From: Eledone cirrhosa
Lineage: Eukaryota
Length of the DNA: 64,000 nucleotides
NCBI GenBank assembly: GCA_964016885.1
Contig: OZ024743.1
Span: 175,274,001-175,338,000 of the forward strand
Reading direction: 5' to 3'
The notes under the pieces: generated by a model
Seen by the model: only the letters and a program-made list of their open reading frames with translations
Told to the model about the DNA's origin: nothing
Database searches by the model: none
Position numbers and translations under genes: made by a program
In this document: piece after piece, positions 1 to 59,713 of the stretch
Position numbering within the stretch: the first letter of the stretch is position 1
Layout of the letters: every line of letters starts with the position of its first letter

Positions 1-1253
1 AAAGTCCATCCCTCGACCCGGCTCACCGCTGCCCTTGAACAGCTGAGCGAAGTGTCGCTGAAAAGCTTCACACATTTGCCCGGGTACGAGTAGCATGCGC
101 CCGTCGTGGTCCACCAAAGACCGGATCGTGGCTTTGTTGCCACGGCAAGCCTCCGCCACTCGGGCCCATTGAACGGCTTTCGTCCCCTCGTGTCTGAGAG
201 CACGCACCCTAGCTCTGACAACGCAGCCTTCGTGCTTTGCATTGAAGAATTGGTCAAGGGCCAATTTCGCCGCAAGCACGTCGGTCGCAATGCCTTTGCT
301 AAGCGCCTCGTCTAATTTTCTAACTAGTTCTCCCTCTGCTCTATTTTTCTCTATTGCTAATGCCTTACTATACCTAATGGATTCTATTCTAATCGCTCTT
401 TTCAGAGCAAACCACCACTTGTTGTTGACGATGGCCCCCGTAAACGCCCGCTTAACTAGTTCGCTAATCCGGTCTCTGTAGACCTTGCGCGCTGGTAAGG
501 ACGCGTTTAGCTTCCAGTAGCCGGGTCCTCGTCTATGAAGCCTATCTAAGTCAAGCACACAGATCACGAATTTGTGGTCCGTGTAGCTGACTATCTTGAA
601 TTGTGGACAGCCTATGCTAGACCTATCTATTTCCCTACAAAATACTCTATCTAGATATGATCTGGATGACCCTATGCGATTTGTCCAAGTCCACATTGGC
701 ACATTCGGGAAATCCAATCGGTACCTGTCAGACAGTTCAAAACGCCTGAGCAGGTTGGTGAGGCTCTTGCACCCTCCACCCCTATCTGCTAATCACACAC
801 GTTACAAGCGTGCATCTAAGATCCCGTTCCAGTCGCCCACTAACACTAAAGAGCGGGACGTTCCAAGAAAGGTCTCCAGACGCCGGAAGAAATCAGGCCG
901 CCCTGCTCCTGTCGGGGCATAGACGCCCACTAGCCTGAAAGCTTGCCCGTCTCCGCTGGTCACGTCTAGCACCACCAACTTACCCTCTGGGTCCAGGAAG
1001 ATGGCCCGTATGGCGAGATCTAAACCTCTCCGAAAAAGCACAGCAACTCCTCCCCCGATCCAGGATGGCTGGGAGATGCGTACACATCGTAGCCTCTGAA
1101 GATCGGTGCGAAGGACCGTGCTTCGGAGATTCTGGTCTCGCTGATGGCCACTACATCTATGTTTTGTGACATGAGGTCGTTGAGCAGGTGACCCTGCTTC
1201 CATGACGACCCCAAGCCACGCGCATTTATGCTGCCTATTCTGAGTGAGGTCAT
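1..1253 (-). pseudogene. Tx1 ORF2 N-terminal APE endonuclease region, frameshifted
   Basis: MTSLRIGSINARGLG start at 1253; frameshift near 1060; homologous to the open ORF2 at 28628. Confidence 0.88.
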
Positions 1254-1404
1254 GTTTAAAATAGAGTGGAAAAGATGGGAAAGACCACTTACCGTACCTT
1301 TCGTAGAGGAAGGTGGTTTTTCCATCCCTTTTCACTTGATCGTCTGTTGAAGGGACCGTTGAATCGTCCCTTCAGCTGGTCGTCGGCTCTTCTATGAGTA
1401 TGTC

Positions 1405-3419
1405 CTAATATACTCTCCGGTTGAGAGTCCCTCCTAGGTCTCTGAAATCACCAACTGCGTTGGGGAATTTCGTTTTAATGTTTGTGTATTGTTTCTGTGC
1501 TATTTTTAGCAGTCTTATGTTAGTTGGCGTTTTGATTGGTGCTGGTATTATGTAGTCGTGCTGTGAAATGTCTGTGTGTACAATTATGTAAGTCATTAGT
1601 TTCTTGTTGTGTGTATTTATTGCCGTGCATTTGTTTTTCTGGGGGTGGGTGTGGTTCTGCTATTTTCTTGTCGTTGTTGCTGGGTGTGTGTGTTTTGTTG
1701 TTGTGTTTGCGATGTTGGTGCTTGTGGTGGTGGAGTTGAAGGTGTTGTTGTTGTTGGCGGTGGGGTTGTCGCCAGTGGTGATGGTGGTGCTAGTGCGGGT
1801 GGTGATGGTGTTGGTGGTGTTGCTGCTGTGAGTCTCTTTGCAGTAGCCTTTACCCTTTTTTCATTTCTTTCCTCCCTTTTCGAAGGCGACGATGCGCTGC
1901 TTCTGCGTTTTGCCTTTTTACGACCTTTTGGAATCCCTCTCCCACCTCACACTCCATGTCTGATTCTGTGAGGTCGGGGAGGGGTACCAGCTCCACTCTT
2001 TCATTTGTTGTTGTTGGTGATGTTTGCACTGGAGTCTATGTTGCAGCTTTGGTATTGCTGTTGTTGTTGTTAATACTTCCACTGCTGCTGCTGTTTTTGA
2101 TTTCCGTGGCGTGGGTATGGGTGCCACGGATCTATCGTTCCTGGTTGCCGCTTGTCCTGTTGCTGGTAGCCGTGGAGCCGGTTTCGGAAGGAGGGTTTTT
2201 TTATCCTTTCTCAGGGTCTTCTCGTTGCAGAAGGCCCTGAGGTGAGTCTTTGATCCACAGCGAAAGCATTTCGGGCGTTTGCCCTCAACACTTATGGGCA
2301 GTTGAGTGCCGTTATTGAAGTCTATCACATCCGGGATAGCTTCGATGCACTCCTGGTTGGTTTGGATTAACATCTCAATAGAGGTGCCGACCCAATCTTC
2401 TCTTACTTTTTTCTGTACTTGCAGTACAGTTGTTTTGTCCTCGGTTCCGACGAGGACAGACACGGCCAGCCAAGAAGGGGACATCCCGGGTGGGACGTGA
2501 GTCAGTATGACCCTCACAATTTTTTGCCCGCAATAAGAGGGCACCAACACCATCTCCTCGCTCCTTAGGGTCACTAAGGATTGAGCCTTTGCCTCCTGGG
2601 GTGTGGCAAAAAGTACGTCTACGGTGGCATATTTCTTGCCTAGGGTGATGTGCGTTTTCCGCTGCCACACAGACCCTAAGGCTTTTTGTATTTCAGCCTC
2701 TGTGGCTCTTTCAACCCTACGGGATTTTGTACTTACTGTACGGTACGTGACCGTACAGTGCTGTTGGGTTTCTAAAAATTTTTCGGCTGCCTTGCAGATT
2801 GCTCGGTGTCTGGTTTTTGTCACCATCTTCTTCGCTTCCTCTAATTCCTCATTTGTTATGAGGATGGTTTCCAGGTTCTTTGCGATACCTGCAAACGAGA
2901 TTGGTTTTTCTTTGCTGCTGTTGTTGTTGTTGTCGTCAGAGCTGCTGTTACTTTTGTTGTTGCTGCAGGTACTACGACTACTGCCGCCGCCGCTGTTGCT
3001 GTGGTTGTTGTTGTTGTTGTTGCTGCTGCTGCTGTTGTTGTTGTTGATGCTAATGCTGTTGTTGTTTATGCTGCTGCTGCTGCTGTTGCGGCTGCTACTG
3101 TTGTTTTCCTTGTCACTGTTGCTGCTGCTGCTGTTATTACGGCTGCTACTGCTATTATTCCTGACGTCAGACGAATGAAATGGGTTTTCGTATTTCCCGC
3201 ACACCTGTTTCGTCGTTGTCGTCGTCGTCGTGGAGAAATCTTGCACGCTTGCACGTGATTTTTCTTTTCTGGCGTCGCTTGCGAAAGAGAAGGGAGGGAG
3301 AGAGACACATTTAAAGAAGGGAGGGAGAGAGACAATCTTCTCTCTGCTGTAGTGAAGATTGAGGAAGAAGAAGACGGAATGAGTGGGAGTGACTTGTGAA
3401 AATTCTTTTTCGTAGCCAT
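1405..3419 (-). pseudogene. Tx1 ORF1 (gag-like RNA-binding protein), frameshifted
   Basis: ATG at 3419 after an A-run; Asn/Ser-rich N-terminus; EGKRPKCFRCGSKTHLRAFC knuckle; coding split across ORFs 3066-3455, 1918-3453 and 1405-1596. Confidence 0.8.
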
Positions 3420-3653
3420 GTTTTTTTTTTTGTTTAAAATAAATATTGGGCACAAAACCCCAATAAGCGGTTATTTAACCCCGAAGGGCTAAATAACGGA
3501 CAGAAAGACCCCCCTCACGAGGAGGAGGGTGTTTTTGTCTACAAGTTGGTTATAGTTTTAAACAATTTACAATTGTTATAGCGGTCAAAATTTACAATAC
3601 CTTACAGAGCCGAACCTCCGGCAACCATAGCATTCAATAATAATAATAATAAT

Positions 3654-3713
3654 TGTTTCTACTTTTGGCACAAGGCCAGCAATTACCCAGTGTATTACTG
3701 GTACTTTATTTTA
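3654..3713 (-). mobile_element. tRNA-derived SINE, 3' fragment between two (AAT)n tracts
   Basis: matches the 3' 60 nt of full copies at 58743 and 59531. Confidence 0.88.
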
Positions 3714-3748
3714 TAATAATAATAATTTATAATAATAATAATAATAAT

Positions 3749-6700
3749 GATTTCATTTATTGGCCACAAGGGCCGACATATAGGGGACAATACAAAAGAC
3801 TGGGACAGTGGGGTTTTACAGAAAAATCGAGTAAACAATATGAATAAACAAAGTAACAATAACAAAGTAACAATAAAGTAACAATAAAATTACAACAAGA
3901 AAAAATTCCCCAATAGGGGGGATGACCACCTAGGGTTCGCTCAGGTACCCCACCAGTCCTGAACGACCCGGCGCTTCGAGAGCACCCTGGAATGGCACCC
4001 CTCTCCTCTTCAAATTTACCTACCTATAGCCGCATGACCAGAGTAGGCCCACTCACACGGACCATTCTCGCCACATTCACCCACCTTTCAGCAAATGTAC
4101 TGAGGGGCAGCACTTCTCTCTCCACCCTCACCTTCCTTTCCAAGTGAAACTTGAAAAAGTTGATGAGGGATTGGACGAAGAGAAAATTCCTTTCAACCTC
4201 GTCCACCATACAACCTCTTTCGCTACTGCCACCAGACAGAGGAAAATTGCCTGCCCTTCCTGGCCAAAAGAAGGCGGCGGGTCGATCTTCACTATGGACG
4301 CGGCCGATAGCCGGATCCGTTCTACACGCGACAACAGCTGTTCAACATAACTCCACAAGTCAGTAATTCACGGACACTGGACGAGTGCGTGCAGAACAGT
4401 TTCGTCGCTCTGCGCGCATCTCGGGCAGGTCCGTCTGACAGCACTTCCGTGCCTGTAGAGTTTATCTCGAACCGGCAGTGCTCCCCGGTAGCACTGCCAA
4501 GCGAGGGATTTTTGGAAATTATCCATCGTCCCCGGCTCGAAAGTCCTCCGGTACAGACTGGTTAGTTCGATTTCGTTGACTCCCAGAGCCTCTCCGAGTG
4601 CGTCGTCGCACTTGCCCACCACTAATCCTCTATAGAACTCGAGAGTGGAAGTTCCACTGACCGCATTGCCCGCCTGGTAGGGGGCAGTGAGTGCCTGGCA
4701 ACATTCCAGATGCCAGTCACCCAGTCTCGGTCTCTTCTTGATCCAGGACTTCAACTCAGTCAAAGAAACGAGCTGCGGAAAGGCTCGTCTGACAAACGGC
4801 GACCACACCTGTTTACCGTTTAGGCAGAATATCTGGAGATGCCACAACCTCAGCGCGTGCCTGCGCATCATTAGCCACGGCATGCCCAGCCCTCCACGTA
4901 GAGGTGCTGGCAGCAGATGGACCGCCTCACCAGCGGAACCTGACCCCTCCACAAGAATTTGAAGAGGAGCCGCTCCAAGATGGCGAGGCGCGAACAGGGG
5001 CAAGGGACGACAGTCAGACGGTAGTAGATGACGGACGCGATGTACGCGTTCGCCACCTCCGCCCGACCTTTCAGTGATAGCTTCATCCCAGCCCATTTCT
5101 AGGTGAGACTGACTACCCTGCCCGTCACCTCGTCCCAATTCTTATCCACCTGGAGGTCTGGCCCGAACCAAACCCTTAGAAACTTTACCGGTCCGTCCGT
5201 CCAGCGCCTAACGACGCTGTTGGACGGCATGGACTTGCCTCTCCAGGTACCGAGTTGCAAGCCCACTGACTTTTCGGGTTAAGTTTTGCTCCCGTCAACC
5301 TTTCATATTCCTCCAATAAGTTGCCGACCACCTCGATTTCTGAGGTGTCCGACACCATCACGGTGATGTCGTCCGCATAAGCCGACACAGCCTTTCCGCG
5401 TCCCGGTTCGAGCGGGATGCCCTGCAACAGCTCCATCTTCCGCAGTAAAGGCTCGAGAGTCAATACGTACAGAAGGGAGGAGAGAGGGCAAAAAAGTCTT
5501 GAAGTGGGTTTTACGTTCGGGGTTCCCACGTCCCGAAGAAAGCTGTCTCGTATTTCTTTGAATATATCGAGCGACATTCGCACCAGAACCAAATCTTCCG
5601 GCACGCGAAATGTGCTCGATTAAAACATTTCCCCCTCTTTTTGTATATTTTCACTTCGTGCTACGAGGGCCATCAGTTCCTTATTGGCCCTCCTGACGAG
5701 CACGAAGTTTTGTATGTTTTGTTGGTGTGATTTTATTTGTTTGCGTGGCTGTGGTGGTGATGGTTTTGGTGGTGTTGTTTCGGTTGTATCTGTGTTTGTT
5801 GTGAGTGCGGTGTCTGTGGTTTCAGATGTTTGTGTGTATATTTGTTCTTGCGTCTGTTTCGGTTGTTTGCGTTTGGGGGATTCTGGTGATGGTGATGGTG
5901 GTGTTGATGTTGGTGTTATTGGAGAGATGTTTGCGTGGGTGGTGTCTGCGTTTTTTATTGTGGGTGCTTTTGTGCTTTGTTGAGTTTTTTTTTTCATTTT
6001 GTGTTTCCTTTTTTGTATTTTGGGGGATTTTGGATTTCCCTCATTTTCATTACTGGTAGATGAGGGGTCTGTGTCTGTAAGTGTGTCTGTATGTATGTTT
6101 AAGGTTTTATTGGTGTGTGTATTTTTTGGGGGAGGGGGAATTTGACAGCTTTCCTCGTTTGCCCCCTGGGTGGTCAATGTTGGTGGTGGGCTTTCTATTG
6201 GTGTTGTTGTTCGTGGTTTTGCCGGTGCAGGTGTTGGTTGTGGTCCTTGACCCGGCGTCGGCAGCAGTGGGGCCTTTCGACCCCTTGCCTCTTTCAGCAA
6301 TTGAGGGCAGAAGGCTCGCAAATGGGTTTTTTCCCCACAAACAAAACACTGCGGCCATTTGCCTTCGGTCATAATGTGAATGACAGTCCCATTCTGAAGG
6401 CGGATGTAGTCTGGGATTGTCTTCACATTCTCGGGCCTGATCTGGAGAAGGATCTCCAGGTCAACCCCGGACCAGTCCTCTCTGGCCGTTCTGGTCACTT
6501 CTATAGGGACTGCATCCGTCCCCTCCACAATCACACATCCCAGAAGCCACCACATGTCAAGTCCTGGTGGGATTCTGGGAATGCGGAGACGGGCCGTTCT
6601 TTTCCCATGTGGGAGGGGTACATTATGACCTTGCTGGTTTTGCAAGGAGTCATAGTGTGTTTCATAGCGAGGGCTTCTGACTTAAACAACACCGAAATGG

Positions 6701-7594
6701 TGCCGTACTGTCTGCCCCTCTCTATGTACTGGGTGTCTTCTCTGATGCACCTCAGCGCAACTTCGACATCTTCTTGTGGGATTAACGCTGCCCTTTTGGT
6801 TTGTGCTGAGATGCATCTATAATGCACCGTTTTGCGCTCCACTGCCTCAATAGCTTCTACCGGGACAGTTAAGTTGGCCCAAGTTTGCTCTTGCTTGATG
6901 AGCTTCCATGCCTGGGCCAACTTTTCATCTTTGTTTGAGAGGTCCATGTTGAAGCATGGCCTCTTTTTTGCTGCTGCCGCAGCGAAAGTGGTCTTGTTTT
7001 CGTTGGGGGTGTTGTTGACGTTGTTCTTGTTGGTGTTGTTGTTAGCACTGTCGCTGTTATCATTGTTGTCTTTGTTGCCACCGTTGTTCTCGGTGCAGTT
7101 GGTATTGTTGCTGTTGGTGTTGTCGCTATTTGTTTTCATGTTAGTGGTGTTGATATTGTTGTTGTATTTGTTATTTTTTTTTTTTGTTATCTATATTTTC
7201 GTTGTCACTGTTACTGTCATTTTTTTCAAAATTAGAGTTCTTATTGGTATCATTGGTGTCTTTGTTTACATTGTTTGTGGTGGTGCTTGTGTTATCAATG
7301 TGTGTTAATTTCACTGTAGCGCTCTTCTCAACTTCGACGTCGTTGTCGCACGACAGCCGACATATCGCTGGGGGGCGTGGCTCAGTCATGTTTTTTTTTT
7401 TTCGTAAATTTTTTAACATGTAAAAAAAGTTCAAATATTTGGGCCAAAAGGCCCAAATATTATACTTTCCCCTTCACGGGGCAAAGTCTAAGGGCTTATA
7501 TCCCTGACACAACAAGAAATATTTAACAACAAATAATTTAAACAGGCAAATAAAGCGACTTACTGTGAGCGAGCAAAATACGTCCGCTTAGACC
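3749..7594 (-). mobile_element. Tx1-like retrotransposon copy A2, with internal deletion of EN and N-terminal RT
   Basis: ORF1 pieces 7389-5620 (CFVCGEKTHLRAFC) joined at about 5490 directly to CPLSSLLYV...AYADD; C-terminal CPRCAQSDETVLHALVQC; 3' end GCCCTTGTGGCCAATAAATGAAATC then (ATT)n. Confidence 0.9.
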
Positions 7595-7624
7595 AATAAT
7601 AATAATAATAATAATAATAATAAT

Positions 7625-7727
7625 TGTTTCTACTTTAGGCACAAGGCCAGCAATTACCCAGTGCATTACTGATACTTTATTTTATCGACCCCGTAAGGAT
7701 GAAAGGCAAAGTCAACCTCGGCGGGAT
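7625..7727 (-). mobile_element. tRNA-derived SINE, 5'-truncated
   Basis: 3' half of the SINE consensus, flanked by (AAT)n on both sides. Confidence 0.9.
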
Positions 7728-7745
7728 AATAATAATAATAATAAT

Positions 7746-7922
7746 TGTTTCTACTTTAGGGACAAGGCCAGCAATTACCCAGTGTATTACTGGTACTTTA
7801 TTTTATCGACCCCGTAAGGATGAAAGTTAACCTCGGCGGGATTTGAACTCAGAATGGAAAGGGCTGTAACTCTTTGCGTCAAAGCATGGCGTCCGACCCT
7901 CTACCGATACTGCCAATCCACC
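7746..7922 (-). mobile_element. tRNA-derived SINE, full length
   Basis: box A TGGCAGTATCGG and box B GAGTTCAAATCCC on the minus strand; (ATT)n tail. Confidence 0.92.
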
Positions 7923-7955
<33 letters not shown>

Positions 7956-7957
<2 letters not shown>

Positions 7958-8551
7958 TTTCTTTATTGGCCACAAGGGCTGACATCAAGAAAAACATCAC
8001 AGACGGAACAGGACGGTACGATGTGGGTTTTGTGCGTGTAAATATTTTTATTATTTATATAAGAAAAGAAAAAAAAAGGACATAGAAACATATATATAAA
8101 CAATAAAAATGAAAATTGAAACAATGAAAAATGCCCCAATAGGGGGGAACCTCCGAGGGTTACTCGTGGCGAAAACCACACAAAAGACCACGGCCACCCA
8201 GACCACCAGGGCAAGCGCCCTCTCCCAATTTTTTCATTTCTCAAACTACAGACGTATATTCAGAGTGGTCCCGTTCACTCGGACCATTCTCGCTACATTC
8301 ACCCATCTTTCAACAAACTTGCTAGAAGGCAGCACTTGCCTCTCCACCCTTATTTTCCTCTTCAAGTGAAACTTGAAAAAGTTAATTAGGGATTCGCCGA
8401 AGAGGAAAGTGTCTGACTTTAACCCTGTAACCTTGTCCACCACACAATCTCTTTCGCCATGGCCACCAGGCAGATGAAAACCGCCTGCCCTTCCTCCTCG
8501 AAGGAAGACGGCGAGACCATCTGCACAATGGACTCAGTCGACAACCGAATC
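7956..8551 (-). mobile_element. Tx1-like retrotransposon copy A3, 3' fragment
   Basis: encodes ORF2 C-terminus (FVERWVNVARMVRVNG); 3' end GCCCTTGTGGCCAATAAAGAAATC then (ATT)n. Confidence 0.88.
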
Positions 8552-11299
8552 AGCAACAGCAAATGCGGTGAGGAAATTACTTGGCATAAAAACGAGAGGA
8601 AACAACAAACAAGAAAGATCAGATCCTTGGTGGAAGAAACGACTGAACAGTCAAATAAAGGAAATTAGAAAAGACATTGGAAAGCTTGAGTCCCTACTGA
8701 ATGGGACACTACAAAACATAGACACTAAAAATAGATTGGAAATAAAGTACAAAGCTAGGGGAAAAAGCTAAATATTATCATAGAGGAACTGAAGCAACGC
8801 ATAGTAGGAAAAAGTGCAAAGATTAGGTGGTATGAGAGCAGAGTCAGTCAGTATAGACAGAACCGCATGTTTGACAACAACCAGAAGATGTTGTTTGGAC
8901 AGCTTGAAGGGAAAGGAAGAGGCAACGACTTGATCTCTGAGGCGGAACAAACAAGACATTCTGGAGAGGAATATGGGAGCAGGATGTTGAACATAATGAT
9001 CAGGCAGTGTGGATTGAGACAGTACAAACGGAGATTAGTGAACAGGCACACCAACAAACTGATTTGAGTATCACAGTTGAAACTCTTAAGGGGCATGCCA
9101 GAAAACTAACCAACTGGAAATCAGGCCCAGATGGTGTGCAGGGGTATTGGATAAAACATATAACACCCCTCCACCTGAAACTGACAACCATGTTCAATGA
9201 CTGCTTGATGTCAGGTGAGGTACCAGAGTGGTTGACAAAAGGTACCACAGTTCTGATAATGAAAGACCGAGCCAAGGGTAATGATGTTACCAACTATAGA
9301 CTTATCACATGTCTGTCCGTAATGTGGAAACTGTTAACAAGCATTATGTCTGAGGAAATCTACCATCACCTCCACATAAACAACTTGTTACCGGGCGAAA
9401 AGAAAGGATGCCGAAAGAAGTCCCGTGGTACAAAGGACCAGTTACTTATTGATAAGATGGTAATGAAGAATTGCAGAAGGAGACACACCGGTCTTACCAT
9501 GGGATGGATAGACTACAAAAAGGCATTCGACATGGTACCTCATTCTTGAATAACCAAAAGCTTAGAGATCTTCAGGGTGGCAGATAACATCAGACAGTTG
9601 TTGAACAAAAGTATGAAGTCCTGGAAAACAGAGTTAACATCGGGCGGAGAATCCTTGGGAGGCATGAAGATCAAGAGAGGTATCTTCCAGGGAGATAGTC
9701 TGTCCCCTCTGTTGTTTGTCCTTACCCTGATGCCCCTGACCATTATACTGCGAAAAGTGAGAGCAGGATACAAGTTGGGAAAGGGAGAGCTTACCATCAA
9801 TCACCGCCTCTTTATGGACGATCTTAAGCTCTCCGGGAAGAGTGAGAAGGAGTTGGATGTGCTTGTTGACACTGTCCGTATTTTCATCAATGATATTTGT
9901 ATGCAATTTGGTATTAGTAAGTGTGGAGTCCTAGTGATGAAGAGGGGTAAATTGAGTAGAAGCAACGAAATCCAGGTACCAACAGGTGAGATGATAAAGG
10001 AAATTGATACTGAAGAGGGATACAGATATTTAGGTGTTCTGGAGGCTGATGACATCAAGAACCAAAAAATGAAGGAATTGATAAGATCTGAATACATTCG
10101 GAGAGTAAGGAGCGTATTAAAGTCACATCTGAACAGTAGGAATGCCATAAGTGCAGTAAATTCCCGAGCTGTGTCTATTATTAGGTACAGTGCGGTAATT
10201 CTGAGATGGAATGTTGCTGAACAAAAAGAAATGGATAGGAAGACTAGGAAGCTATTGACTATCTACAACATGTTCCACAAGAGGAGTGATGTTGATAGAC
10301 TCTACTTGAGGAGATCTGAAGGTGGAAGAGGTTTTATCAGCATAGAGGACTATGTTAAGATGGAGAAAAACAACCTACACAAATACGTGACTGATAGTAG
10401 GGAGCCAATGCTCAGAATTGTACTGGACAATAGACCAGGGGATGTCCAAGGAGGAAATAACAACAAAGAGAAAGAGCAGCCTTCATGAAAAATCCCTTCA
10501 TAGTACCTTCTTTGAGTAAACTGAATTTAGAGATCCACAGACATGGAACTGGTTGAAAAGAGGAGACCTTAAAAAGGCTACAAAAGGAATGCTAATGGCT
10601 GCGTAAGAGCAGGCCCCCAAAACGAAATGGCTGAAACGCCATATTTACAAGGAGGATCTGTGGAGAGAGAGAGGAGACTGTGGCTCACATTGTATCCGAG
10701 TGTAAACACCTAACTCAGACTCACTATAAAGGCTGGAGACATGATGTGATGGGCAGGGTGATCCACTGGCACCTATGCAAAGTAAACAATTTACCACATT
10801 CTGAGAAGTGGTATGAGCATAATCTAGAGTCGGTGATGGAAAACGATCAGGTGAAGGTGCTGTGGGAGTTTAGGATACAGACGGACAAGAAACTGGAACA
10901 CAATAGACCTGACCTGGTGGTTTGGGACAAGGAAAAAAGATCGTGCCTGATTGTGGATGTAGGCTGCCCATTCGACATGAGAGTGCAAGAGAAGGAGAGG
11001 GAGAAAATTAACCGATACCAGGACTTAAAGTGGGGGGTAAAAAGGATTTGGAACTGCCATGAGGTCAAAGTGGTCCCGATTGTCATAGGCGCACTCAAAG
11101 AATTTCCAAGGATGGTTAAAGAAAATTGGTCCCACCCCGCTTTTTGGAACACTTCAAAAGGCATGCTTGCTGGAAACAGCAAGAACCCTCCGATACGTCC
11201 TGAATATCTGAGGTTGCAGGTAGTGGCTTGATATTCATTTCAACAAACTTTCCAGTTAAATAACATCAATGACTGAGACACAAAGAACAATAATAATAA
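8552..11299 (+). mobile_element. R4/Dong-clade RLE non-LTR retrotransposon, 5'-truncated and degenerate, (TAA)n tail
   Basis: RT motifs GPDG, WIDYKKAFDMVPHS, RGIFQGDSLSP, LFMDDLKL; HIVSEC knuckle remnant; RHD and HNRPDLVVWD..IVDV..EKINRY restriction-like endonuclease; stops and frameshifts. Confidence 0.9.
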
Positions 11300-11501
11300 T
11301 GTTTCTACTTTAGGCACAAGGCCAGGATTTCCCAGTGCATTACTGGTACTTTATTTTATCGACCTCGTAAGGATGAAAGGCAAAGTTAACCTCGGCGGGA
11401 TTTGAACTTAGATCATAATGGGCCGTAATTCTATGCTGCAAAGAATGGCGACCGACCCTCTACCGATACTGCCAATTCACCGCCCTCACTGCCAATTCAC
11501 C
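11300..11501 (-). mobile_element. tRNA-derived SINE, full length with duplicated head
   Basis: SINE consensus; 14-nt head repeat at 11488-11501; (AAT)n on both sides. Confidence 0.88.
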
Positions 11502-22281: not shown

Positions 22282-22572
22282 AAGGTCTTTTTTCTAAGCG
22301 CTCATATATTCACCTAGCTTATGCTAACAGAATAACTATGTAGCTTGTTCCCTTCCTCTCTACGGTTAGCTTTCCTCTTTGTTGTTTACTTGTCTCACTC
22401 GCTTTACGCGTTTTAATTGTCCTAATAACTTAATTTAGTTATTATTGCACCGACGTGAGATATATGATTTTTAATGCAATGAAATATCTATGATCGTCGG
22501 CAAATCACTGATGAGGGACTCATTTTATAACATGTTATCCATGTGCAACCTGCAGTATTCTTCTCCTCATTT

Positions 22573-22606
<34 letters not shown>

Positions 22607-22611
<5 letters not shown>

Positions 22612-23445
22612 AAAATCAACATACTGATTGCGGATTTGGTACGAGTGATGAGAAATGTGTCCAGCATATGCAACCCCGAAGAACTAGAGAGACACATACA
22701 ACACTTCATCCACCGTATGCAGTTCTCTGGCTACAATCAGAGAGATAAAATCAGAGTGTATAGAGGAGCCAGAATCAAATGGGAAAAAATGGTAAATAAT
22801 GACATAAATGGGACCTGCCCCTTGTATAGGAGCAAATTTTGGAATAGAATAGAAAGAACTAGGAACAAGGCTAATAGAATAAACGCATGGTATGATAGCA
22901 ATAAATACCAGAGTGTAATGTTCATCGATACAACCCCTAGAGGTGAATTAGCTTACAAATTTAGAAGGGCCCTAAATAAACATAAACTCAATATTAAGAT
23001 AGTAGAAAGACCAGGTTCCTCCGTAAAAACACTTATTAGCAAGACATACCCTTTTCAAAGACCCTCATGTATAGATATGAAATGTATAACCTGTAAAATA
23101 AGCCCCCATATTAACTGTAAAACTAGAAATGTAGTGTATAGCATAAGATGTACTGAAGGACAATGTAGAAACAAAAATATAGTGTACATAGGTGAGACAG
23201 CTCGTAGTGTAGGGAAACGGATAAATGAACACTGGCGAGACCTTCAAGATAGTAAAGAATCATCTGTACTCTACCAACATGCTAAAATAGAACACAAGGG
23301 TAAATTAGAGAACATAGAAATAAAAATAGAATCTACACACAGAAAAGACGCAATGTTTAGACAAATTACAGAGGCAATAAACATAAAAGAATTACAACCA
23401 AAATTAAATAGAAAATATGAGTGGAACAGCAACATCACAACTTAA
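22607..23445 (+). CDS. PLE ORF C-terminal fragment (RT thumb/linker plus GIY-YIG endonuclease)
   Basis: open frame 22543-23445; the first 21 codons are microsatellite and flank. Confidence 0.75.
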
Positions 23446-26044: not shown

Positions 26045-26710
26045 TATATAAATATATATAATTCTTTCTTTTGCTACATGTACGTTTTTCTACCTGCCTG
26101 TATTTTTTCCTTTCGATCCTGATTATTAAGAACTTTGAAAACTAAGAATCTAATAATATAAATATTTGAAGTGATGTTCAATAAATATTATCTATTGGTG
26201 AAAATACCCCCCCCCCCCAAAAAAAAAAAAAATAATAATAAATAATAGTAATAAATGAATGAAAACAACACCAACACATGAAGAAAGGAAAACGAAATTT
26301 CCATTAACGTTCAGACAATACTTTCAAATGGAATGTCGTTTTGTTCTACAGCTCTTACATAGAGGCGCCTCCATATTGAAGTTGGATTCTAATATATAAT
26401 GATTTATGGTTCTGATAGTATTACATTTAATTAGTGATTTACTTTGAAAATAGCTGATAATAAAACATAATAGTGAAGGTGAATTGTACCGTCTGCTATT
26501 TCAATTTATCATTATTAGGAAACGTTGATACACATTTAGCTTAACTGTTTCCAGAATTGTTTTTCCTCTTATTGTTTCTTCTTTTGTATCTTTATCCTTC
26601 TTCTTTTCTTGTTAGCTTTTCTACAGTTGTTTTCTTCGTACATTTATTTCGTTCATTCTTTATTTTCATGGTGTGATTCTTTTAATCCCCCTTTGCTCTC
26701 TATTTGCCCC

Positions 26711-26791
<81 letters not shown>
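26711..26791. repeat. (TATC)n tract immediately 5' of the Tx1 B array
   Basis: direct reading; further TATC tracts at 32388-32450, 37010-37026 and 41947-41962 separate the elements. Confidence 0.97.
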
Positions 26792-26794
<3 letters not shown>

Positions 26795-26797
26795 TAA

Positions 26798-28603
26798 ATG
26801 GCCGAAGCTTCTTCACCAAAATTCGAAGGAGGAAAGAGGAGATGAACTTACAGCTTTCCCCTGCCACTGTCACAGTAGCAGAGGTCAAGAAGAAAGGTCA
26901 GCCAGAGGAAGAATTCTCTCCACCTGCTAACCGACAACTTGACGTTGCCATGGCAACAACCCAAAGAACCAGCAGCAACAGCAACAACAACAACAATGCG
27001 ACGGACGAAAACAACACCGATAACAATAACAATAACAATAACAACAACAACAAGACCAATAACGGTGACAACAACAACAATGATAACAACAACACCACCA
27101 ACGACAACAACAACACAAACAAACAAAATTTCTCCTTCGCCGAGACGACAAGGAAAACCCTCGACTATCTGCCTGTAGATATAACAAAAGCGAAGGAGCT
27201 ACTGGCGGATGCGAAAAAATATATAGTGTACGGAGAAAATGGTTCATTCACAATCCATTCCCCCCCCCCCCCCCCGGAACTAAAAAGCCAGAGACTCCTA
27301 AACACGGTCATGTTTAGGACAATCTCGAACAAAAGTAAAAAACCAGCTCAACCATCACAGAGCGAGATAGAGCTGGTTTTAAAAGACGTCATGAAGGACA
27401 TCACCTTCATTCAGAAGGATAGACTCTACGGGAGTCTATCCATTCTCATGAAGGACAGGGACACAGCAGTGAAACTGTCCATCAAACCAATCACATCGAC
27501 CGCATACACCTTCTACCCTACGTACATGGGTAGAAGAACACAAAAATAAAAATCCACACCATCCTGCCGATTATGGACATATGGTGGGTTTGACAGGTTT
27601 CCTGGACCTGGAGGATGACATGCTGGTGTCCATGGGAAAGGCATCGGGTGACGCGTTCAGTGGAACGAGCCTCGAACTTGTAGTTCAAATGAGGCCCGAA
27701 AGGATCGCCCAGATCCCTGAACGCGTCATACTGGATGATCTAACCTTCATCAACATTACCGTTGAGGGTAGGCGGCCCTCGTGTTACCTCTGCGGAACCA
27801 GAGGTCACCTGAGGGCTGTCTGTCCCCAACTTAATAAGAAAACCCCAATCCTGCCTACACCACCAACAACTGCACAACCAACACAATCACCACAACTACC
27901 ACTACAAAAACAACCACCACAGCTCAAACCAAAACAAAACAATGTCCAACCCATCCCCTCCACTCAAAAAACAAAAACAATTTCCAAAACACCCGTACCG
28001 CAAACACAACCCGAAAATATACCCCTCCCCTCCAACGCGGAAGATGACCCTAGTTCGTCGTCAGACGAGGAGGAGCACTTCCACACAATCAAAAGAAAAA
28101 AAAGAAAACACACCTCAGACACACAAATGAAAAAAAACCCTCCCCAAAACATAACACTGACACCAACACAAAAGAGCTCACAACAACAGCAAACAAAAGA
28201 CACCACACAAAAACAAAAACATGCATACACATACATAAACACAAGAAACAAAAAACTGTTAAACATTGTGTACAACAACAATCTAATAAAAACACAAGGG
28301 CCTAACTTCACCCAGGCAGGGGATTTCCCCCACCTCAAAATGATTAAGGCCCCACAGGACACCTATAAAACTTTAAAAAACAATTTTAAAGAGGACGTGG
28401 GTCTCCCCTGCGTCGGGCCCATTAACCGCGTCCTCCTAAAAAACTATCCCACCCCCTCCCCAAACACCCACACAACTCCAAGCTCCCCAACCACACAACA
28501 CACTGATGCCCCCACACTTCCACAAACCACCACCCCACCCAACAACCCATCCCCCACCCTAATGGAAATTGTGCAGCCCGATACCCGGGACGCAGAGAGG
28601 TAA
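26798..28603 (+). pseudogene. Tx1 ORF1, frameshifted near 26840 and 27545
   Basis: Asn-rich N-terminus; EGRRPSCYLCGTRGHLRAVC knuckle; Pro/Thr/Lys-rich tail. Confidence 0.85.
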
Positions 28604-28627
28604 GTGCCTTTTCTCTTCACCACCAAC

Positions 28628-31600
28628 ATGGCTATGCTAAGAGTAGGCTGTTTAAATGCGCGTGGCCTGGGCTCAACTTGGAAGCAAGCAATGCTTCTAA
28701 ATGACCTCAGGTCACAACGTATAGATGTGATGGTTATTTGCGAGGCCCCCCGGATCAGCAACGTGCGACAGCTGGCCCCCACCTTTGATGACTTTGAGAT
28801 GCACGCATCTCTCTGTCAGCCCGGAGGTGGGGGTGGAGTTGTCGTTCTGCTGCAAAAACATCTGGGTCTCGCAACACAGATGGTACATTTGGACCCGGAG
28901 GGTCGACTAGTGGTTCTGGACCTTGGCAGTGGTAAAGGCGGAGCGTTTAGGTTGGTAGCCGCCTACGGCCCTTTCGGGTCAATGCGGCCGGACTATTTCC
29001 ATCGTCTGGAGACTTTTCTAGGGACGCCCCGCTCCTGGCTATTAGTGGGGGACTGGAATGGTATCCTAGATGCACGCTGGGACTACGTAGGGGCCTGCCC
29101 CGATAGAGAGGGGTGTAATAGCCTCAAAGGGTTAATCGGTCGATTTGACCTGGCCGATAGATATCGACTAGATTTTCCGACTGCGCCAACCTGGACTTGG
29201 GCAAATCGTAGCGGATCATCTAGGTCGTACCTAGATAGGTTCTTAGTTAGAATTAAGGATAAGGACTTTTTAAGTTGTCCAAAAATGCGCATGGTTGGCT
29301 ATTCAGACCACAAATTAGTGACCTGCATGGTCAACCTTGACAGAACTCATAGACAGGGCCCCGGTTACTGGAAGCTCAACTTGTCCTTGCCGGCAAGTAG
29401 AGCCTACAGGAATCGGATTAGTACGTTAGTTAAGGAACGGTTGACTGGAGCGATCGTCAACAGCAGGTGGTGGGTATCTCTAAAGAGAGAGATTAGAGTA
29501 GTCTCGATAGAATTTAGTAAGGTTCTAGCTGCGGATAGGAATAGGAAGGAAAGGGAGCTAATAGATAGAGTAGAAGAGGCAATTAGAAGCGGCGACGTGG
29601 CCAGAGTGCTAGCGTCGAGAACGGCTTTGAGCCAGTTTTTCGACGCGAAGCACGAAGGCTGCGTTGTCCGAAGTAAAATACGTGCTCTAGGGAACGAGGG
29701 GACCAAAGCTGTTAGCTGGGCCCGCGTGACAGAGGCCAACAGTGGAACTAAATCCACCATCCGGTCTTTGCGAGACCTGGATGGACGGGCGATTCTTGAG
29801 CCTAAGCAGATGTGTGAGGCCTTTCAAAGGCACTTTGCCCGACTGTTCGGGAGGGGCGGGAGGCCGGTTGGGAACGTGGACTTCGGTCCATACCTCGCCG
29901 GCCTGCCGCGCCTCTCGGACAGGGAGGCGAAGTCCTGCGAGGAGCCGATTTCGGCCGCTGAGATAGAGGACGTGCTGAGCCAATGCGGCAAACGCAAATC
30001 CCCGGGTCTCGATGGTCTTCCTTACGAATTATATCTAGCTATGCCGGACTTGTTCCCCGATCTCCTCGAGGCGGTCTACTGCAACTGGCAACAGAACGGG
30101 AGAATTCCCTGTACTGTGACCAAGGGCGTAGTCACGCTAGTGAGGAAGGACGAGAACAAGGGGGACGAAATAAGTAACTTCAGGCCCATAACTCTGCTAA
30201 ATACAGAGTTACAGATTTTGGCCAAGGTGTTAGCAAAGAGGTTGGCGCTTGTCGTGGGCAACCTGGTGGGAGATGCGCAGACATGCGCTATCCCGTCCAG
30301 GTCCATCCATGACAACCTCCACCTCATGCGATACATCATAGAGAGGGTTGGGAACGAACCCGGCTTTGGTGGGGCTCTGATCAACTTGGATCAATCTAAG
30401 GCGATCGATAGGGTCGACCATGGTTACCTGGATGCGGTGCTAGCGGCGGCAGGCTTCGGACCCGTTTTCAGGGGCTGGATCACTGCGATGCACAGCAGCC
30501 GCATCTGCTCTAGGGTCAAGGTGAACGGCTACCTCTCGGAGCCGTTCAAAATCGCGCGGTCCATCCGACAAGGGTGCCCTCTCTCCTCCCTTCTGTATGT
30601 GTTGACTCTCGAGCCACTACTGCGGAAGTTGGAGTTGTTGCAGGGCATCCCTTTGGAACCGGGATTGCGGAAAGCGGTGTCGGCCTACGCCGATGACGTG
30701 ACAGTAATGGTGTCGACGGCCTCCGAAATCGAGGCGGTCGGCACCTTACTGGAGGAGTACGAAAAGTTCACAGGGGCTAAGCTGAACCGGGACAAGTCGA
30801 TCGGTTTGCAACTCGGCACGTGGAGGGGCAGACCGATGCCCTCCGATGGCGTCGTCGGACGGTGGACGGAGGGCCCGGTGAAGTTGCTCAGGGTCTGGTT
30901 CGGACCGGACCTCCAGGTGGAGAAAAACTGGGCGGAGGTTACGAACAGGGTGTTTGCACTGACCCAGAAGTGGGCCAATTGCAAACTATCCCTGAAAGGT
31001 CGGGCGGAGGTGGCGAACACCTACATAGCGTCCGTCATCTACTACCGCCTGACCGTAGTGCCCTGCCCAAGGGAAACGCTCACCAAGATGGAGCGCGCGC
31101 TCTTCCAATTCCTTTGGAAGAGGCGGGCTCCTATGGTGAGGAGATCCATCTGCTGTCAACACCCTTCGAAAGGAGGGCTGGGGATGCCGTGGCTAATGAT
31201 GCGTAAACACGCATTAAGGCTACGGCACCTCTACGTATTCCTCACCGGACAACCGGTGTGGGCCTCGTTTGTGAGACGAACCTTTCCCAGACTCGTCTCA
31301 CTCACCGAGCTGCAATCCTGGGTCAAGCAAAGACCGAGAAAACTGGGCGCCTGGCACACTGAGTGTGCCCAGGCGCTCACCGCCCTCTGGCAGGCGGATC
31401 CGGTTATCAGTGGAGACTCCACCGCAACATTCTATAGAGGGCTGGTACGCAGCAGGTGCGACGACGCCCTCGGAGAAGCCCTAGACATGGAGGAGGACGA
31501 ACTGGCCAGCCTGTTCGGTAGGACATTCAGCCCGGGACCTATGGACAACTTCCAGAAGTCCCTGGCCTGGCAGTGCTACCGAGGAGCTTTACCCGTTCGA

Positions 31601-32068
31601 GAAAGGCTCTACAGACACGGGCGCCCGGGTAGGGACCCCGCCAAAAAGATCTGTCCCAGATGCGTGTGCGACGAGGAAACCGTTGCACACGCATTGGTAC
31701 ACTGCTCGGGCGTAGCCGATCTGTGGGGCTATGTCGAACAACTGCTGTCAAGGGTGGGACCGATCCGGTTGACCACCGAGTCTATTGTAATGATCAAGCC
31801 GCCTCCCCCCTTCAAAGATGAAGCAGAGGCGGTGTTTCTGTGCGTAATAGCCATGGCGAAAGAGGTTGTATGGTCGACGCGTCTGAAAGGACTGAGGTCA
31901 GGCACCTTTCTCTCTGGCCAACAACTGGTCCGTTTCTTCCGATATCATTTCGGAAGAAGGATCAGGATGGAGAGAGAGGTGCTGCACCCCAGTCGTTTTT
32001 ATGAAAGGTGGGTGAAAGTGGCGAGAATGGCCCGTGTGAATGGGCCTTCTCTTTACATGAGCCTGTAG
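28628..32068 (+). CDS. Tx1 ORF2: APE endonuclease, reverse transcriptase, CCHC finger (1146 aa, open)
   Basis: LNARGL, GDWN, SYLDRF, SDHK (APE); PGLDG, NFRPITLLN, LDQSKAID, RQGCPLS, AYADD (RT); CPRCVCDEETVAHALVHC. Confidence 0.95.
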   Translation: MAMLRVGCLNARGLGSTWKQAMLLNDLRSQRIDVMVICEAPRISNVRQLAPTFDDFEMHASLCQPGGGGGVVVLLQKHLGLATQMVHLDPEGRLVVLDLGSGKGGAFRLVAAYGPFGSMRPDYFHRLETFLGTPRSWLLVGDWNGILDARWDYVGACPDREGCNSLKGLIGRFDLADRYRLDFPTAPTWTWANRSGSSRSYLDRFLVRIKDKDFLSCPKMRMVGYSDHKLVTCMVNLDRTHRQGPGYWKLNLSLPASRAYRNRISTLVKERLTGAIVNSRWWVSLKREIRVVSIEFSKVLAADRNRKERELIDRVEEAIRSGDVARVLASRTALSQFFDAKHEGCVVRSKIRALGNEGTKAVSWARVTEANSGTKSTIRSLRDLDGRAILEPKQMCEAFQRHFARLFGRGGRPVGNVDFGPYLAGLPRLSDREAKSCEEPISAAEIEDVLSQCGKRKSPGLDGLPYELYLAMPDLFPDLLEAVYCNWQQNGRIPCTVTKGVVTLVRKDENKGDEISNFRPITLLNTELQILAKVLAKRLALVVGNLVGDAQTCAIPSRSIHDNLHLMRYIIERVGNEPGFGGALINLDQSKAIDRVDHGYLDAVLAAAGFGPVFRGWITAMHSSRICSRVKVNGYLSEPFKIARSIRQGCPLSSLLYVLTLEPLLRKLELLQGIPLEPGLRKAVSAYADDVTVMVSTASEIEAVGTLLEEYEKFTGAKLNRDKSIGLQLGTWRGRPMPSDGVVGRWTEGPVKLLRVWFGPDLQVEKNWAEVTNRVFALTQKWANCKLSLKGRAEVANTYIASVIYYRLTVVPCPRETLTKMERALFQFLWKRRAPMVRRSICCQHPSKGGLGMPWLMMRKHALRLRHLYVFLTGQPVWASFVRRTFPRLVSLTELQSWVKQRPRKLGAWHTECAQALTALWQADPVISGDSTATFYRGLVRSRCDDALGEALDMEEDELASLFGRTFSPGPMDNFQKSLAWQCYRGALPVRERLYRHGRPGRDPAKKICPRCVCDEETVAHALVHCSGVADLWGYVEQLLSRVGPIRLTTESIVMIKPPPPFKDEAEAVFLCVIAMAKEVVWSTRLKGLRSGTFLSGQQLVRFFRYHFGRRIRMEREVLHPSRFYERWVKVARMARVNGPSLYMSL

Positions 32069-32388
32069 GTGGAAAAGAGGAAGGAACGAGGGAGCACCCC
32101 CTCTCTGGGCTCCTGAGGAAAAGGGTTGCACACTTTTTTCGGGGGTGTGTGCGACCCCCCCAAGGCGCCTCCTCTCTATTGAGGATTTTGTTATAAATTT
32201 TATTTTTTGTTATATTTTATAACAAAATCCTCTATTGAGGATTTTGTTATAATTCTATTTTTTGTTATATTTTATTTTATTTTTATATATTGTTATTGCC
32301 TCCTCCCTATTGAGGACGCATTGTTTTGTAAACTCCCCCCTTTGTATTTGTCCCCTTCTTTTGTGCCCCTGTGGCTAATAAAGAAATA

Positions 32389-32448
<60 letters not shown>

Positions 32449-32451
<3 letters not shown>

Positions 32452-35400: not shown

Positions 35401-37010
35401 TCCGAAATCGAGGCGGTCGGCACCTTACTGGAGGAGTACGAAAAGTTCACAGGGGCTAAGCTGAACCGGGACAAGTCGATCGGTTTGCAACTCGGCACGT
35501 GGAGGGGCAGACCGATGCCCTCCGATGGCGTCGTCGGACGCTGGACGGAGGGCCCGGTGAAGTTGCTCGGGGTCTGGTTCGGACCGGACCTCCAGGTGGA
35601 GAAAAACTGGGCGGAGGTTACGAACAGGGTGTTTGCACTGACCCAGAAGTGGGTCAGTTGCAAACTATCCCTGAAAGGTCGGGTGGAGGTGGCGAACACC
35701 TACATAGCGTCCGTCATCTACTACCGCCTGACCGTAGTGCCCTGCCCAAGGGAAACGCTCACCAAGATGGAGCGCGCGCTCTTCCAATTCCTTTGGAAGA
35801 GGCGGGCTCCTATGGTGAGGAGATCCATCTGCTGTCAACACCCTTCGAAAGGAGGGCTGGGGATGCCGTGGCTAATGATGCGTAAACACGCATTAAGGCT
35901 ACGGCACCTCTACGTATTCCTCACCGGACAACCGGTGTGGGCCTCGTTTGTGAGACGAACCTTTCCCAGACTCGTCTCACTCACCGAGCTGCAATCCTGG
36001 GTCAAGCAAAGACCGAGAAAACTGGGCGCCTGGCACACTGAGTGTGCCCAGGCGCTCACCGCCCTCTGGCAGGCGGATCCGGTTATCAGTGGAGACTCCA
36101 CCGCAACATTCTATAGAGGGCTGGTACGCAGCAGGTGCGACGACGCCCTCGGAGAAGCCCTAGACATGGAGGAGGACGAACTGGCCAGCCTGTTCGGTAG
36201 GACATTCAGCCCGGGACCTATGGACAACTTCCAGAAGTCCCTGGCCTGGCAGTGCTACCGAGGGGCTTTACCCGTTCGAGAAAGGCTCTACAGACACGGG
36301 CGCCCGGGTAGGGACCCCGCCAAAAAGATCTGTCCCAGATGCGTGTGCGACGAGGAAACCGTTGCACACGCATTAGTACACTGCTCGGGCGTAGCCGATC
36401 TGTGGGGCTATGTCGATCAACTGCTGTCAAGGGTGGGACCGATCCGGTTGACCACCGAGTCTATTGTAATGATCAAGCCGCCTGCCCCCTTCAAAGATGA
36501 AGCAGAGGCGGTGTTTCTGTGCGTAATAGCCATGGCGAAAGAGGTTGTATGGTGGACGCGTCTGAAAGGACTGAGGTCGGGCACCTTTCTCTCTGGCCAA
36601 CAACTGGTCCGTTTCTTCCGATATCATTTCGGAAGAAGGATCAGGATGGAGAGAGAGGTGCTGCACCCCAGCCGTTTCTATGAAAGATGGGTGAAAGTGG
36701 CGAGAATGGCCCGTGTGAATGGGCCTTCACTCTACATCAGACTATAGGTGAGGAAGATGAAAGACCAAGGGAGCACCCCTTCTCTGTGCTCCTGAGGAGA
36801 AGGGTTGCACACCTTTTTCGGGGGTGTGTGCGACCCCCCAAGGCGCCTCCTCTCTATTGAGGATTTTGTTAAAAATTTATTTTTTGTTATATCTTATTTT
36901 ATTTTTATATTTTGTTATTGCCTCCTCCTTATTGAGGACGCCTTTTTGTGTAAACTCCCCCCTTTGTACTTGTCCCACTTTTGATGCCCTAGTGGCAAAT
37001 AAAAGAAATA
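32449..37010 (+). mobile_element. Tx1-like retrotransposon copy B2, 5'-truncated in ORF1; ORF2 (33311-36747) with a 1-nt frameshift at about 35359
   Basis: near-identical to B1; starts at ITVEGRRPSC directly after (TATC)n; ends GTGGCAAATAAAAGAAATA then (TATC)n. Confidence 0.95.
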
Positions 37011-37029
37011 TATCTATCTATCTATCTCT

Positions 37030-59530: not shown

Positions 59531-59713
59531 GGTGAATTGGCAGTATCGGTAGAGGGTTGGACGCCATGCTTTGACGCATAGAGTTACGGCCCATGCCATT
59601 CTGAGTTCAAATCCCGCCGAGGTTAACTTTGCCTTTCATCCTTATGGGGTCGATAAAATAAAGTACCAGTAATGTACTGGATAATTGCTGGCCTTGTGCC
59701 AAAAGTAGAAACA
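59531..59713 (+). mobile_element. tRNA-derived SINE, full length, 13-bp TSD attattaatattt
   Basis: box A and box B present; TSD at 59518-59530 and 59714-59726. Confidence 0.95.

What the first reader, a model, noticed from the sequence alone, without database searches (positions are those of the whole stretch)
7746..7985. The tRNA-SINE 3' tail matches the 3' end of the ATT-associated Tx1 LINE: candidate Tx1-SINE partnership
Seen: the SINE ends GGCCTTGTGCCTAAAGTAGAAACA-ATTATT and Tx1 copy A3 ends GCCCTTGTGGCCAATAAAGAAATC-ATTATT. These align without gaps at 22 of 30 positions (16 of 24 excluding the tail), with CCTTGTG and AGAAA at the same distance from the tail. SINE copies also sit in the (ATT)n spacers between Tx1-A copies in the same orientation (3654, 7625, 7746). 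Established: many SINEs carry the 3' end of the LINE that mobilises them, mostly L2, CR1 or RTE; Tx1 partners are rarely reported. Inference: this abundant SINE uses the ORF2 of an ATT-preferring Tx1 family and inherits its target choice.
Basis: partly seen in the sequence, partly recalled or inferred. Interest (0 to 1): 0.8.

Follow-up and report, generated by a model that had tools for sequence, protein, structure and literature searches.

The report
Cephalopod SINE borrows Tx1 retrotransposon tail
A short repeat present in about 250,000 copies ends in the same small predicted hairpin as this genome's Tx1-like retrotransposons and inserts at the same ATT-type sites as one group of them, so it likely uses their enzyme to copy itself, a tail-sharing partnership I did not find described for Tx1.

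Summary
The match is real: 16 of 24 end-anchored positions, shuffle P=4e-5. The shared end is a predicted 3-4 bp hairpin with a 5-nt loop, then a purine-rich 5-mer. The stem covaries across Tx1-like subfamilies, and the SINE carries a further compensatory pair. The 28 Dong/R4 and RTE rows score 7-12 of 24; one CR1 end reaches 13-14. The SINE (about 252,000 ends) has target duplications of median 15 bp starting ATTAT, so its 'tail' is mostly target DNA. Two truncated ATT-group Tx1 copies show the same signature. Limits: the similarity is short, TATC-targeting Tx1 ends match slightly better (17-18 of 24), a Tx1-trained covariance model missed the SINE, SINE sites are shorter ATT runs than Tx1 sites, and no assay was run. 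Mobilisation by an ATT-preferring Tx1: about 0.7. It would be a new variant of known SINE-LINE pairing: crocodilian SINEU is linked to Tx1 by target only.

The parts
7746..7922 (-). Near full-length SINE copy, directly downstream of the Tx1-A3 (ATT)n run
   Evidence: 90% identical to the copy at 59531-59713
7904..7915 (-). Pol III A-box-like motif of the SINE head
   Evidence: read from sequence against the recalled consensus; ARAGORN and Rfam found no tRNA
7839..7850 (-). Pol III B-box-like motif
   Evidence: read from sequence; consensus recalled
7746..7769 (-). SINE 3' end of this copy; inner stem pair broken by a substitution at 7761
7625..7727 (-). 5'-truncated SINE; intact hairpin (stem 7648-7646 with 7640-7638, loop 7645-7641) and purine-rich 5-mer 7631-7627
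7923..7955 (-). (ATT)11 run between the Tx1-A3 end and the SINE
7595..7624 (-). (ATT)10 run between the SINE and the 5' end of Tx1-A2
7956..8553 (-). 5'-truncated Tx1-like copy A3 (end of ORF2 and 3' UTR)
7956..7979 (-). Tx1 3' end: hairpin (stem 7979-7977 with 7971-7969, loop 7976-7972), poly(A)-signal hexamer 7967-7962, purine-rich 5-mer 7962-7958
3749..7594 (-). Tx1-like copy A2 with both ends and an internal deletion of about 2.07 kb near 5490
3654..3714 (-). 3' fragment of the SINE in the ATT spacer between A2 and A1
1..3629 (-). 5' part of Tx1-like copy A1 (ORF1 with a CCHC knuckle, endonuclease); a B-type 3' end lies just upstream of the window and is followed by (ATT)5 and a same-strand SINE
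11300..11481 (-). SINE inserted into the (AAT)n tail of a + strand Dong/R4-like element
28604..32388 (+). Comparison element: TATC-associated Tx1-like copy with a 1154-aa open APE-RT frame and the same hairpin position at its 3' end

Best explanation
This abundant SINE shares a short 3' end and an ATTAT insertion signature with the genome's Tx1-like LINEs, and it is likely copied in trans by the ORF2 protein of an ATT-preferring Tx1 family. Shown: the end match, the covarying stem, target duplications of about 15 bp starting ATTAT, and same-strand stacking at Tx1 ends. Inferred steps: (1) Pol III would transcribe the SINE from its A/B boxes into the flank. (2) The predicted 3-4 bp hairpin with a 5-nt loop, plus the purine-rich 5-mer 8 nt after the shared 7-mer, would mimic the Tx1 RNA end and recruit ORF2p; the SINE lacks the poly(A) signal that Tx1 keeps there. 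(3) The APE endonuclease would nick the bottom strand opposite the start of ATTAT, and the freed primer could pair with AUUAU in the RNA. (4) A top-strand nick about 15 nt downstream would give the duplication. Whether the site choice comes from the nuclease or from primer pairing cannot be separated here.
For: End match 16 of 24, P=4e-5. The 8 Tx1 rows with correctly called ends score 13-18 of 24 (P<=0.02); the 28 R4 and RTE rows score 7-12 (P>=0.07). A weight matrix trained on 16 Tx1 ends only gave 199 hits at score >=10 among 2.53 million positions, 109 of them SINE ends (of 167 annotated). Stem pairing is 92% in 23 Tx1 ends and 87% in 21 Tx1+SINE ends, 0 of 500 shuffles as high, with slid partners 10-57%; the pair that is C-G in 15 Tx1 rows is G-C in all 4 SINE rows. 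Duplications >=10 bp in 92 of 180 SINE copies against 7% of mismatched flanks; median 15 bp. In a test that skips the first 5 bases, 29 of 36 are preceded by ATTAT in the 5' flank against 0.28% background. Two truncated ATT-group Tx1 copies have 15-18 bp duplications starting ATTAT. 11 of 58 Tx1-ATT ends have a same-strand SINE within 100 nt, 1 an opposite-strand one. Five SINE/Tx1 chimeras are joined inside the shared motif. 17 of the 150 best hits to an ATT-group ORF2 C-terminus lie in open frames >=1100 aa. Divergence ranges overlap.
Against: The similarity is only about 24 nt, and the SINE ends fold no better than shuffles (z +0.3 to +1.7). A covariance model built from 23 Tx1 ends found no SINE end in the window at E<=10. 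No LINE with the SINE's exact stem was found: the 16 genome-wide matches of SINE stem plus poly(A) signal are SINE copies (15 with clear SINE body). TATC-group ends match better (17-18 of 24) than ATT-group ends (14-16). One CR1 end scores 13-14 of 24 (P 0.022 and 0.008, uncorrected). Only 9 of 122 random SINE ends are followed by five or more ATT units, against 15 of 19 ATT-group Tx1 ends. The matrix columns were chosen after seeing the match, and related sequences can inflate covariation scores. Age overlap also holds for Dong and RTE, so it does not discriminate.
Confidence: 0.7

Rival explanations
1. The tail is Tx1-derived, but the working partner is a different, rarer or extinct Tx1 family with a relaxed ATTAT preference, not the (ATT)n-microsatellite families seen in the window.
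For: SINE sites are mostly one or two ATT units (80 of 122), while full-length A2 copies are flanked by ATT runs. No sampled family has the SINE's stem, and TATC-group ends match best.
Against: Two ATT-group copies sit in unique sequence with SINE-like duplications; SINEs stack at ATT-group ends; only 3 of 122 SINE ends are followed by TAT or ATC.
Confidence: 0.15
2. The young CR1-like family mobilises the SINE.
For: Its end matches 13-14 of 24, local score P 0.12 and 0.011; it is abundant and young (150 of 150 scored hits identical).
Against: The alignment needs 2 gaps and lacks the shared loop; the SINE lacks the CR1 terminal repeat; 29 of 30 CR1 ends printed run into TA-type microsatellites. 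About 29 non-Tx1 ends were tried, so P=0.008 is weak.
Confidence: 0.05
3. The tail match is chance or convergence, and an unsampled LINE (L2, Hero, R2, other) or relaxed recognition drives the SINE.
For: Short motif, weak hairpin, covariance model miss; only 1.26 Mb was surveyed for LINE families.
Against: P=4e-5, correct register from the end, compensatory pair and independent target evidence. Dong/R4 shares the same microsatellite but on the opposite strand; RTE ends in (GAT)n.
Confidence: 0.1

Closest known systems
Crocodilian SINEU and Tx1-Mar (Kojima 2015, PMC4494074; read part 1 of 5, passages and section 16)
   Same: SINE inferred to be mobilised by Tx1 from shared target preference and overlapping ages.
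   Different: SINEU has snRNA heads and poly(A) tails, and the paper found no retrotransposon sharing the SINEU-1 3' terminus. Here the head has A/B boxes, the 3' hairpin is shared, and the target is ATTAT.
Stringent L1-clade pairs: maize ZmSINE2/3 with LINE1-1_ZM, Chlamydomonas SINEX-3 with L1-1_CR (Ohshima 2012, PMC3472496 passages; 2013, PMC3747384 Table 1)
   Same: L1-clade LINE and SINE share a 3' hairpin with compensatory stem changes and a conserved loop.
   Different: Those are plant and algal with 45-80 nt shared; this is an animal Tx1-like lineage with about 24 nt and a smaller stem. The table of 58 pairs lists no Tx1 partner.
L2, CR1, Nimb and RTE partner SINEs (zebrafish ZfL2 stem-loop binding, PMC4176376 one passage; bivalve SINEs, PMC4824008 and PMC11481361 passages)
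   Same: Tail mimicry through a 3' stem-loop bound by ORF2p.
   Different: Different LINE clades; the bivalve matches are 35-61 bp at 72-95% identity, longer and closer than here.
Microsatellite-targeting Tx1 families Kibi (TC)n and Koshi (TTC)n (as described in PMC4494074)
   Same: Tx1-type LINE that prefers a microsatellite.
   Different: Targets here are (ATT)n and (TATC)n; no SINE partner is given for them in the passages read.
Octopus tRNA-SINEs OK, OR1, OR2 and tRNA-Core/tRNA-Deu annotations (PMC4824008, PMC4758252, PMC8967140 passages)
   Same: Very abundant cephalopod SINE; this family may be one of them.

Membership tests
SINE (Pol III, non-autonomous) | Short, non-coding, high copy | tested here: met
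   About 185-190 nt; 251,768 3' motifs genome-wide
SINE (Pol III, non-autonomous) | Target-site duplications | tested here: met
   92 of 180 copies >=10 bp against 7% control
tRNA-derived SINE | tRNA-related head with A and B boxes | tested here: inconclusive
   A/B-box-like motifs by eye; ARAGORN 0 genes and no Rfam tRNA hit at E<=10
SINE (Pol III, non-autonomous) | Pol III transcription | not testable with these tools
   No RNA holder listed
Tx1 clade LINE | ORF2 with APE, RT and zinc finger, L1-group affinity | tested here: met
   PF03372, PF00078 and PF13966 (the last below its cut-off); best PDB match human L1 ORF2p E 7e-45, R2 E 3e-18
Tx1 clade LINE | ORF1 with gag-like CCHC knuckle | tested here: met
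   CX2CX4HX4C in ORFs 1918-3474 and 27473-28603; that this marks Tx1 is recalled; no Pfam hit for 1918-3474
Tx1 clade LINE | Target sequence preference | tested here: met
   Full-length A2 copies flanked by (ATT)n; other families end at (TATC)n
Tx1 clade LINE | RT phylogeny with named Tx1 references | not testable with these tools
   No named Tx1 reference among the hits; the label is Tx1-like within the L1 group
Stringent SINE-LINE pair | Shared 3' terminal sequence | tested here: met
   13-18 of 24 for Tx1 ends; short compared with published pairs
Stringent SINE-LINE pair | Conserved stem-loop with compensatory changes | tested here: met
   not supported by folding energy or by the Tx1-only covariance model
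Stringent SINE-LINE pair | Shared insertion signature | tested here: inconclusive
   Same ATTAT start and strand, but different ATT run lengths and only 2 Tx1 duplications in unique sequence
Stringent SINE-LINE pair | ORF2p binds and mobilises the SINE RNA | not testable with these tools
   needs an assay
MetaSINE | Meta central domain | tested here: inconclusive
   No resemblance by eye to the bivalve Meta-SINE alignments in the PMC4824008 supplement; not aligned
CORE-, Deu- or Ceph-SINE | Diagnostic central domain | not tested
   Reference domain sequences not available

The most novel reading that the evidence does not exclude
An animal Tx1 (L1-group) lineage recognises its RNA stringently through a tiny 3' hairpin, and a 250,000-copy cephalopod SINE hijacks it with a compensated copy of that hairpin: the first tail-sharing SINE-Tx1 pair, and the missing engine of a major cephalopod SINE expansion.
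Probability: 0.55. Interest if true: 0.7.

Novelty: new variant of a known kind. Interest (0 to 1): 0.58.

Why it matters
SINEs are a main repeat class of octopus genomes (11.6% of O. vulgaris, PMC13282606), and the papers found name no partner LINE for them. L1-group elements in animals are usually treated as relaxed poly(A) readers; stringent cases are reported from maize, sorghum and an alga (PMC3472496). A Tx1-like lineage with a covarying 3' hairpin shared by a SINE would extend stringent recognition to animal L1-group elements. It gives a 24-nt, directly mutable test of how ORF2p chooses RNA, and explains why SINEs, Tx1 and Dong pile up on the same ATT/AAT microsatellites.

Tried and rejected
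ARAGORN and Rfam found no tRNA in the SINE head. The Tx1-only covariance model did not detect SINE ends in the window, and found nothing below E 0.06 in 48 of the 80 distant Tx1/L1-like metagenome loci, so there is no sign here that the hairpin extends beyond this lineage. The sequence-only model was built but not searched. Automatic end calling failed for 6 of 14 Tx1 rows, both CR1 rows and some RTE rows; CR1 was redone by coordinates and Tx1 ends were re-located but not re-scored. A 1045-aa ORF first taken for a second Tx1 type was reassigned to CR1 from its sequence and tail (recalled features). Dong/R4 was rejected as partner: same microsatellite, opposite strand, 7-12 of 24. Penelope and CRE-like ends were not tested. 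A search for unique-sequence duplications in 36 longer Tx1 loci found only ATT-repeat matches. A DNA search with a B-type end returned nothing (common words skipped). The ORF2 tree separates a TATC clade (100/100) and a B clade (100/97) but does not resolve ATT-group monophyly. No RNA holder listed. No earlier scan findings. The 'TX1' hits in PMC4176376 are mutant names, not the clade. Albertin 2015 was not held.

Full report
Setting. The window lies in a 3.0 Gb genome. The nearest named relative of the window's intact APE-RT protein is from Argonauta hians at 66%, so the host is likely an octopod-like cephalopod. The first 11.5 kb are a stack of retroelements on ATT/AAT microsatellites: three Tx1-like copies on the minus strand (A1 1-3629; A2 3749-7594, both ends with a 2.07 kb deletion; A3 7956-8553, 5'-truncated), four minus-strand SINE copies (3654, 7625, 7746, 11300) and a plus-strand Dong/R4-like element. 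The LINE has endonuclease, RT and zinc-finger domains, matches human L1 ORF2p best among solved structures, has a CCHC ORF1 and prefers microsatellites. I call it Tx1-like; no named Tx1 reference was available for a tree.

Observation. The last 24 nt of the SINE at 7625 and of A3 match at 16 positions without gaps, P=4e-5. The copy at 7746 has a substitution at 7761 and scores 15. The SINE 3' motif occurs 251,768 times genome-wide and an ATT-group Tx1 end motif 14,167 times; reversed-pattern controls gave 0.

Is Tx1 the best match? I sampled 12 arbitrary 100-kb blocks plus the window and found Tx1-like, Dong/R4, RTE, CR1, Penelope and a few rarer RT families. 84 ends were called automatically and reduced to 44 distinct rows. 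The 8 of 14 Tx1 rows with correctly called ends score 13-18 of 24 (P<=0.02). The 9 R4 and 19 RTE rows score 7-12 (P>=0.07); some RTE rows are not true ends. The CR1 end, redone by coordinates, scores 13-14 (P 0.022 and 0.008) and needs two gaps in local alignment; it carries its own terminal repeat and runs into TA-type microsatellites in 29 of 30 ends. TATC-associated Tx1 ends score 17-18, above the ATT group's 14-16, so the tail marks the lineage and not one family. A weight matrix from 16 Tx1 ends, scanned over 2.53 million positions, gave 199 hits at score >=10, of which 109 were SINE ends; its columns were chosen after seeing the match. A covariance model from 23 Tx1 ends did not report any SINE end at E<=10. 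Of 16 genome-wide matches to SINE stem plus poly(A) signal, 15 have a clear SINE body and none is a LINE, so no exact donor was found.

Structure. The shared stretch is a predicted 3-4 bp stem closing a 5-nt loop, followed at a fixed distance by a purine-rich 5-mer. Among Tx1 ends alone the outer pairs switch between G-C, A-U and U-A: 92% of cells pair against 81% in shuffles (0 of 500 as high) and 10-57% for slid partners. Relatedness can inflate this. The minimum-energy fold places the hairpin there in 6 of 9 ends folded and a 6-nt-loop version in a seventh, but SINE ends are no more stable than shuffles. Contigs of four runs labelled as four other organisms cover both the SINE tail and the Tx1 terminal 30-40 nt, with no variant at 15% or more listed in the hairpin arms or loop (the second list was cut by 7 rows); only sequences at least 80% alike are laid. 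Distant Tx1/L1-like elements from metagenomes (24-39% identity) showed no model match.

Insertion signature. 92 of 180 SINE copies have a duplication of 10 bp or more starting at the SINE's end, against 7% of mismatched flanks; the median of those >=8 bp is 15. 82 of the 92 begin ATTAT. To avoid circularity I seeded on bases 6-13 of the 3' flank: 36 of 179 copies gave a usable seed, and 29 of these have ATTAT before it in the 5' flank, against 0.28% background. The SINE's ATT tail is therefore mostly target DNA. Full-length A2 copies are flanked by (ATT)n on both sides. Two truncated ATT-group copies in unique sequence have 15-18 bp duplications starting ATTAT. 11 of 58 ATT-group ends have a same-strand SINE within 100 nt and 1 an opposite-strand SINE; SINE density is about one per 10 kb (122 ends in 1.2 Mb). 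Against a perfect fit: 9 of 122 random SINE ends are followed by five or more ATT units, versus 15 of 19 ATT-group Tx1 ends. Dong/R4 uses the same microsatellite on the other strand.

Other evidence. Four SINE bodies end in a Tx1 terminus and one Tx1 body ends in a SINE terminus, all joined within the shared motif; template switching or recombination could each explain them. 17 of 150 scored hits to an ATT-group ORF2 C-terminus lie in open frames of 1100 aa or more (their 3' ends were not checked). Divergence from column majority is 1.7-15% (median 6.6) for 89 SINE copies, 1-6% for 8 B-type and 2-12% for 5 A2-type Tx1 ends; Dong and RTE overlap too.

Mechanism. Likely target-primed reverse transcription in trans: a Pol III SINE transcript presents the hairpin and 5-mer, Tx1 ORF2p binds, nicks opposite the start of ATTAT, primes with possible AUUAU pairing, and a second nick about 15 nt away makes the duplication. 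All of these steps are inferred from sequence and from established LINE biology; ORF2p binding to a cognate stem-loop is shown for zebrafish L2 in PMC4176376 (one passage).

Literature. Eight searches found no tail-sharing SINE-Tx1 pair and no named partner for cephalopod SINEs of this kind. Kojima 2015 links SINEU to Tx1-Mar by target and age and found no shared 3' terminus for SINEU-1. Ohshima's table of 58 pairs has no Tx1, and only three L1-tailed SINEs, from plants and an alga. Bivalve partners are CR1, CR1-Zenon, L2 and Nimb. Only passages or named sections of these papers were read. Repbase, Dfam, subscription papers (Ohshima and Okada 1994, Kojima and Fujiwara 2004) and the SINEBase supplement could not be seen and may already record this pair.

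Verdict. Real feature; partner in the local Tx1-like lineage about 0.85, specifically an ATT-preferring family about 0.7. New variant of a known kind; interest 0.58.

Noticed in passing
window 26686-41947: Tandem array of TATC-associated Tx1-like copies, one with a 1154-aa open ORF2 frame; they form a separate ORF2 clade (100/100) but keep the same 3' hairpin, suggesting a target switch without a change in RNA recognition.
   Followed up: partly
window 8554-11290; L001-L030; L181-L210: Dong/R4-like elements end in (AAT)n on their sense strand, and Tx1 and the SINE often lie tail-to-tail against that run on the opposite strand, giving mixed retroelement stacks.
   Followed up: partly
L179 (CR1-like ORF 1160-4294); L267-L296: Very young CR1-like family (150 of 150 scored hits identical over 150 aa) whose ends run into TA-type microsatellites in 29 of 30 cases: apparent microsatellite preference for a CR1.
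   Followed up: partly
L297, L298, L299, L261, L300: SINE/Tx1 chimeras joined inside the shared 3' motif.
   Followed up: partly
L083:3800-3982; L079:6417-6500: A longer SINE subfamily with an extra stretch of about 30 nt before the hairpin and varied spacer; similar loose ends appear in runs of other organisms, so it may be the older form.
   Followed up: no
L039, L046, L051, L054: SINEs often form same-strand tandem arrays by inserting at the duplicated ATTAT site of an earlier copy.
   Followed up: no
L149:3080-3136: A TATC-group Tx1 end with a short inverted duplication of its terminal 20 nt.
   Followed up: no
window 22531-23445 and 50406-51739: Penelope-like RT and GIY-YIG-like fragments (label from recalled motifs; no Pfam hit).
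   Followed up: no
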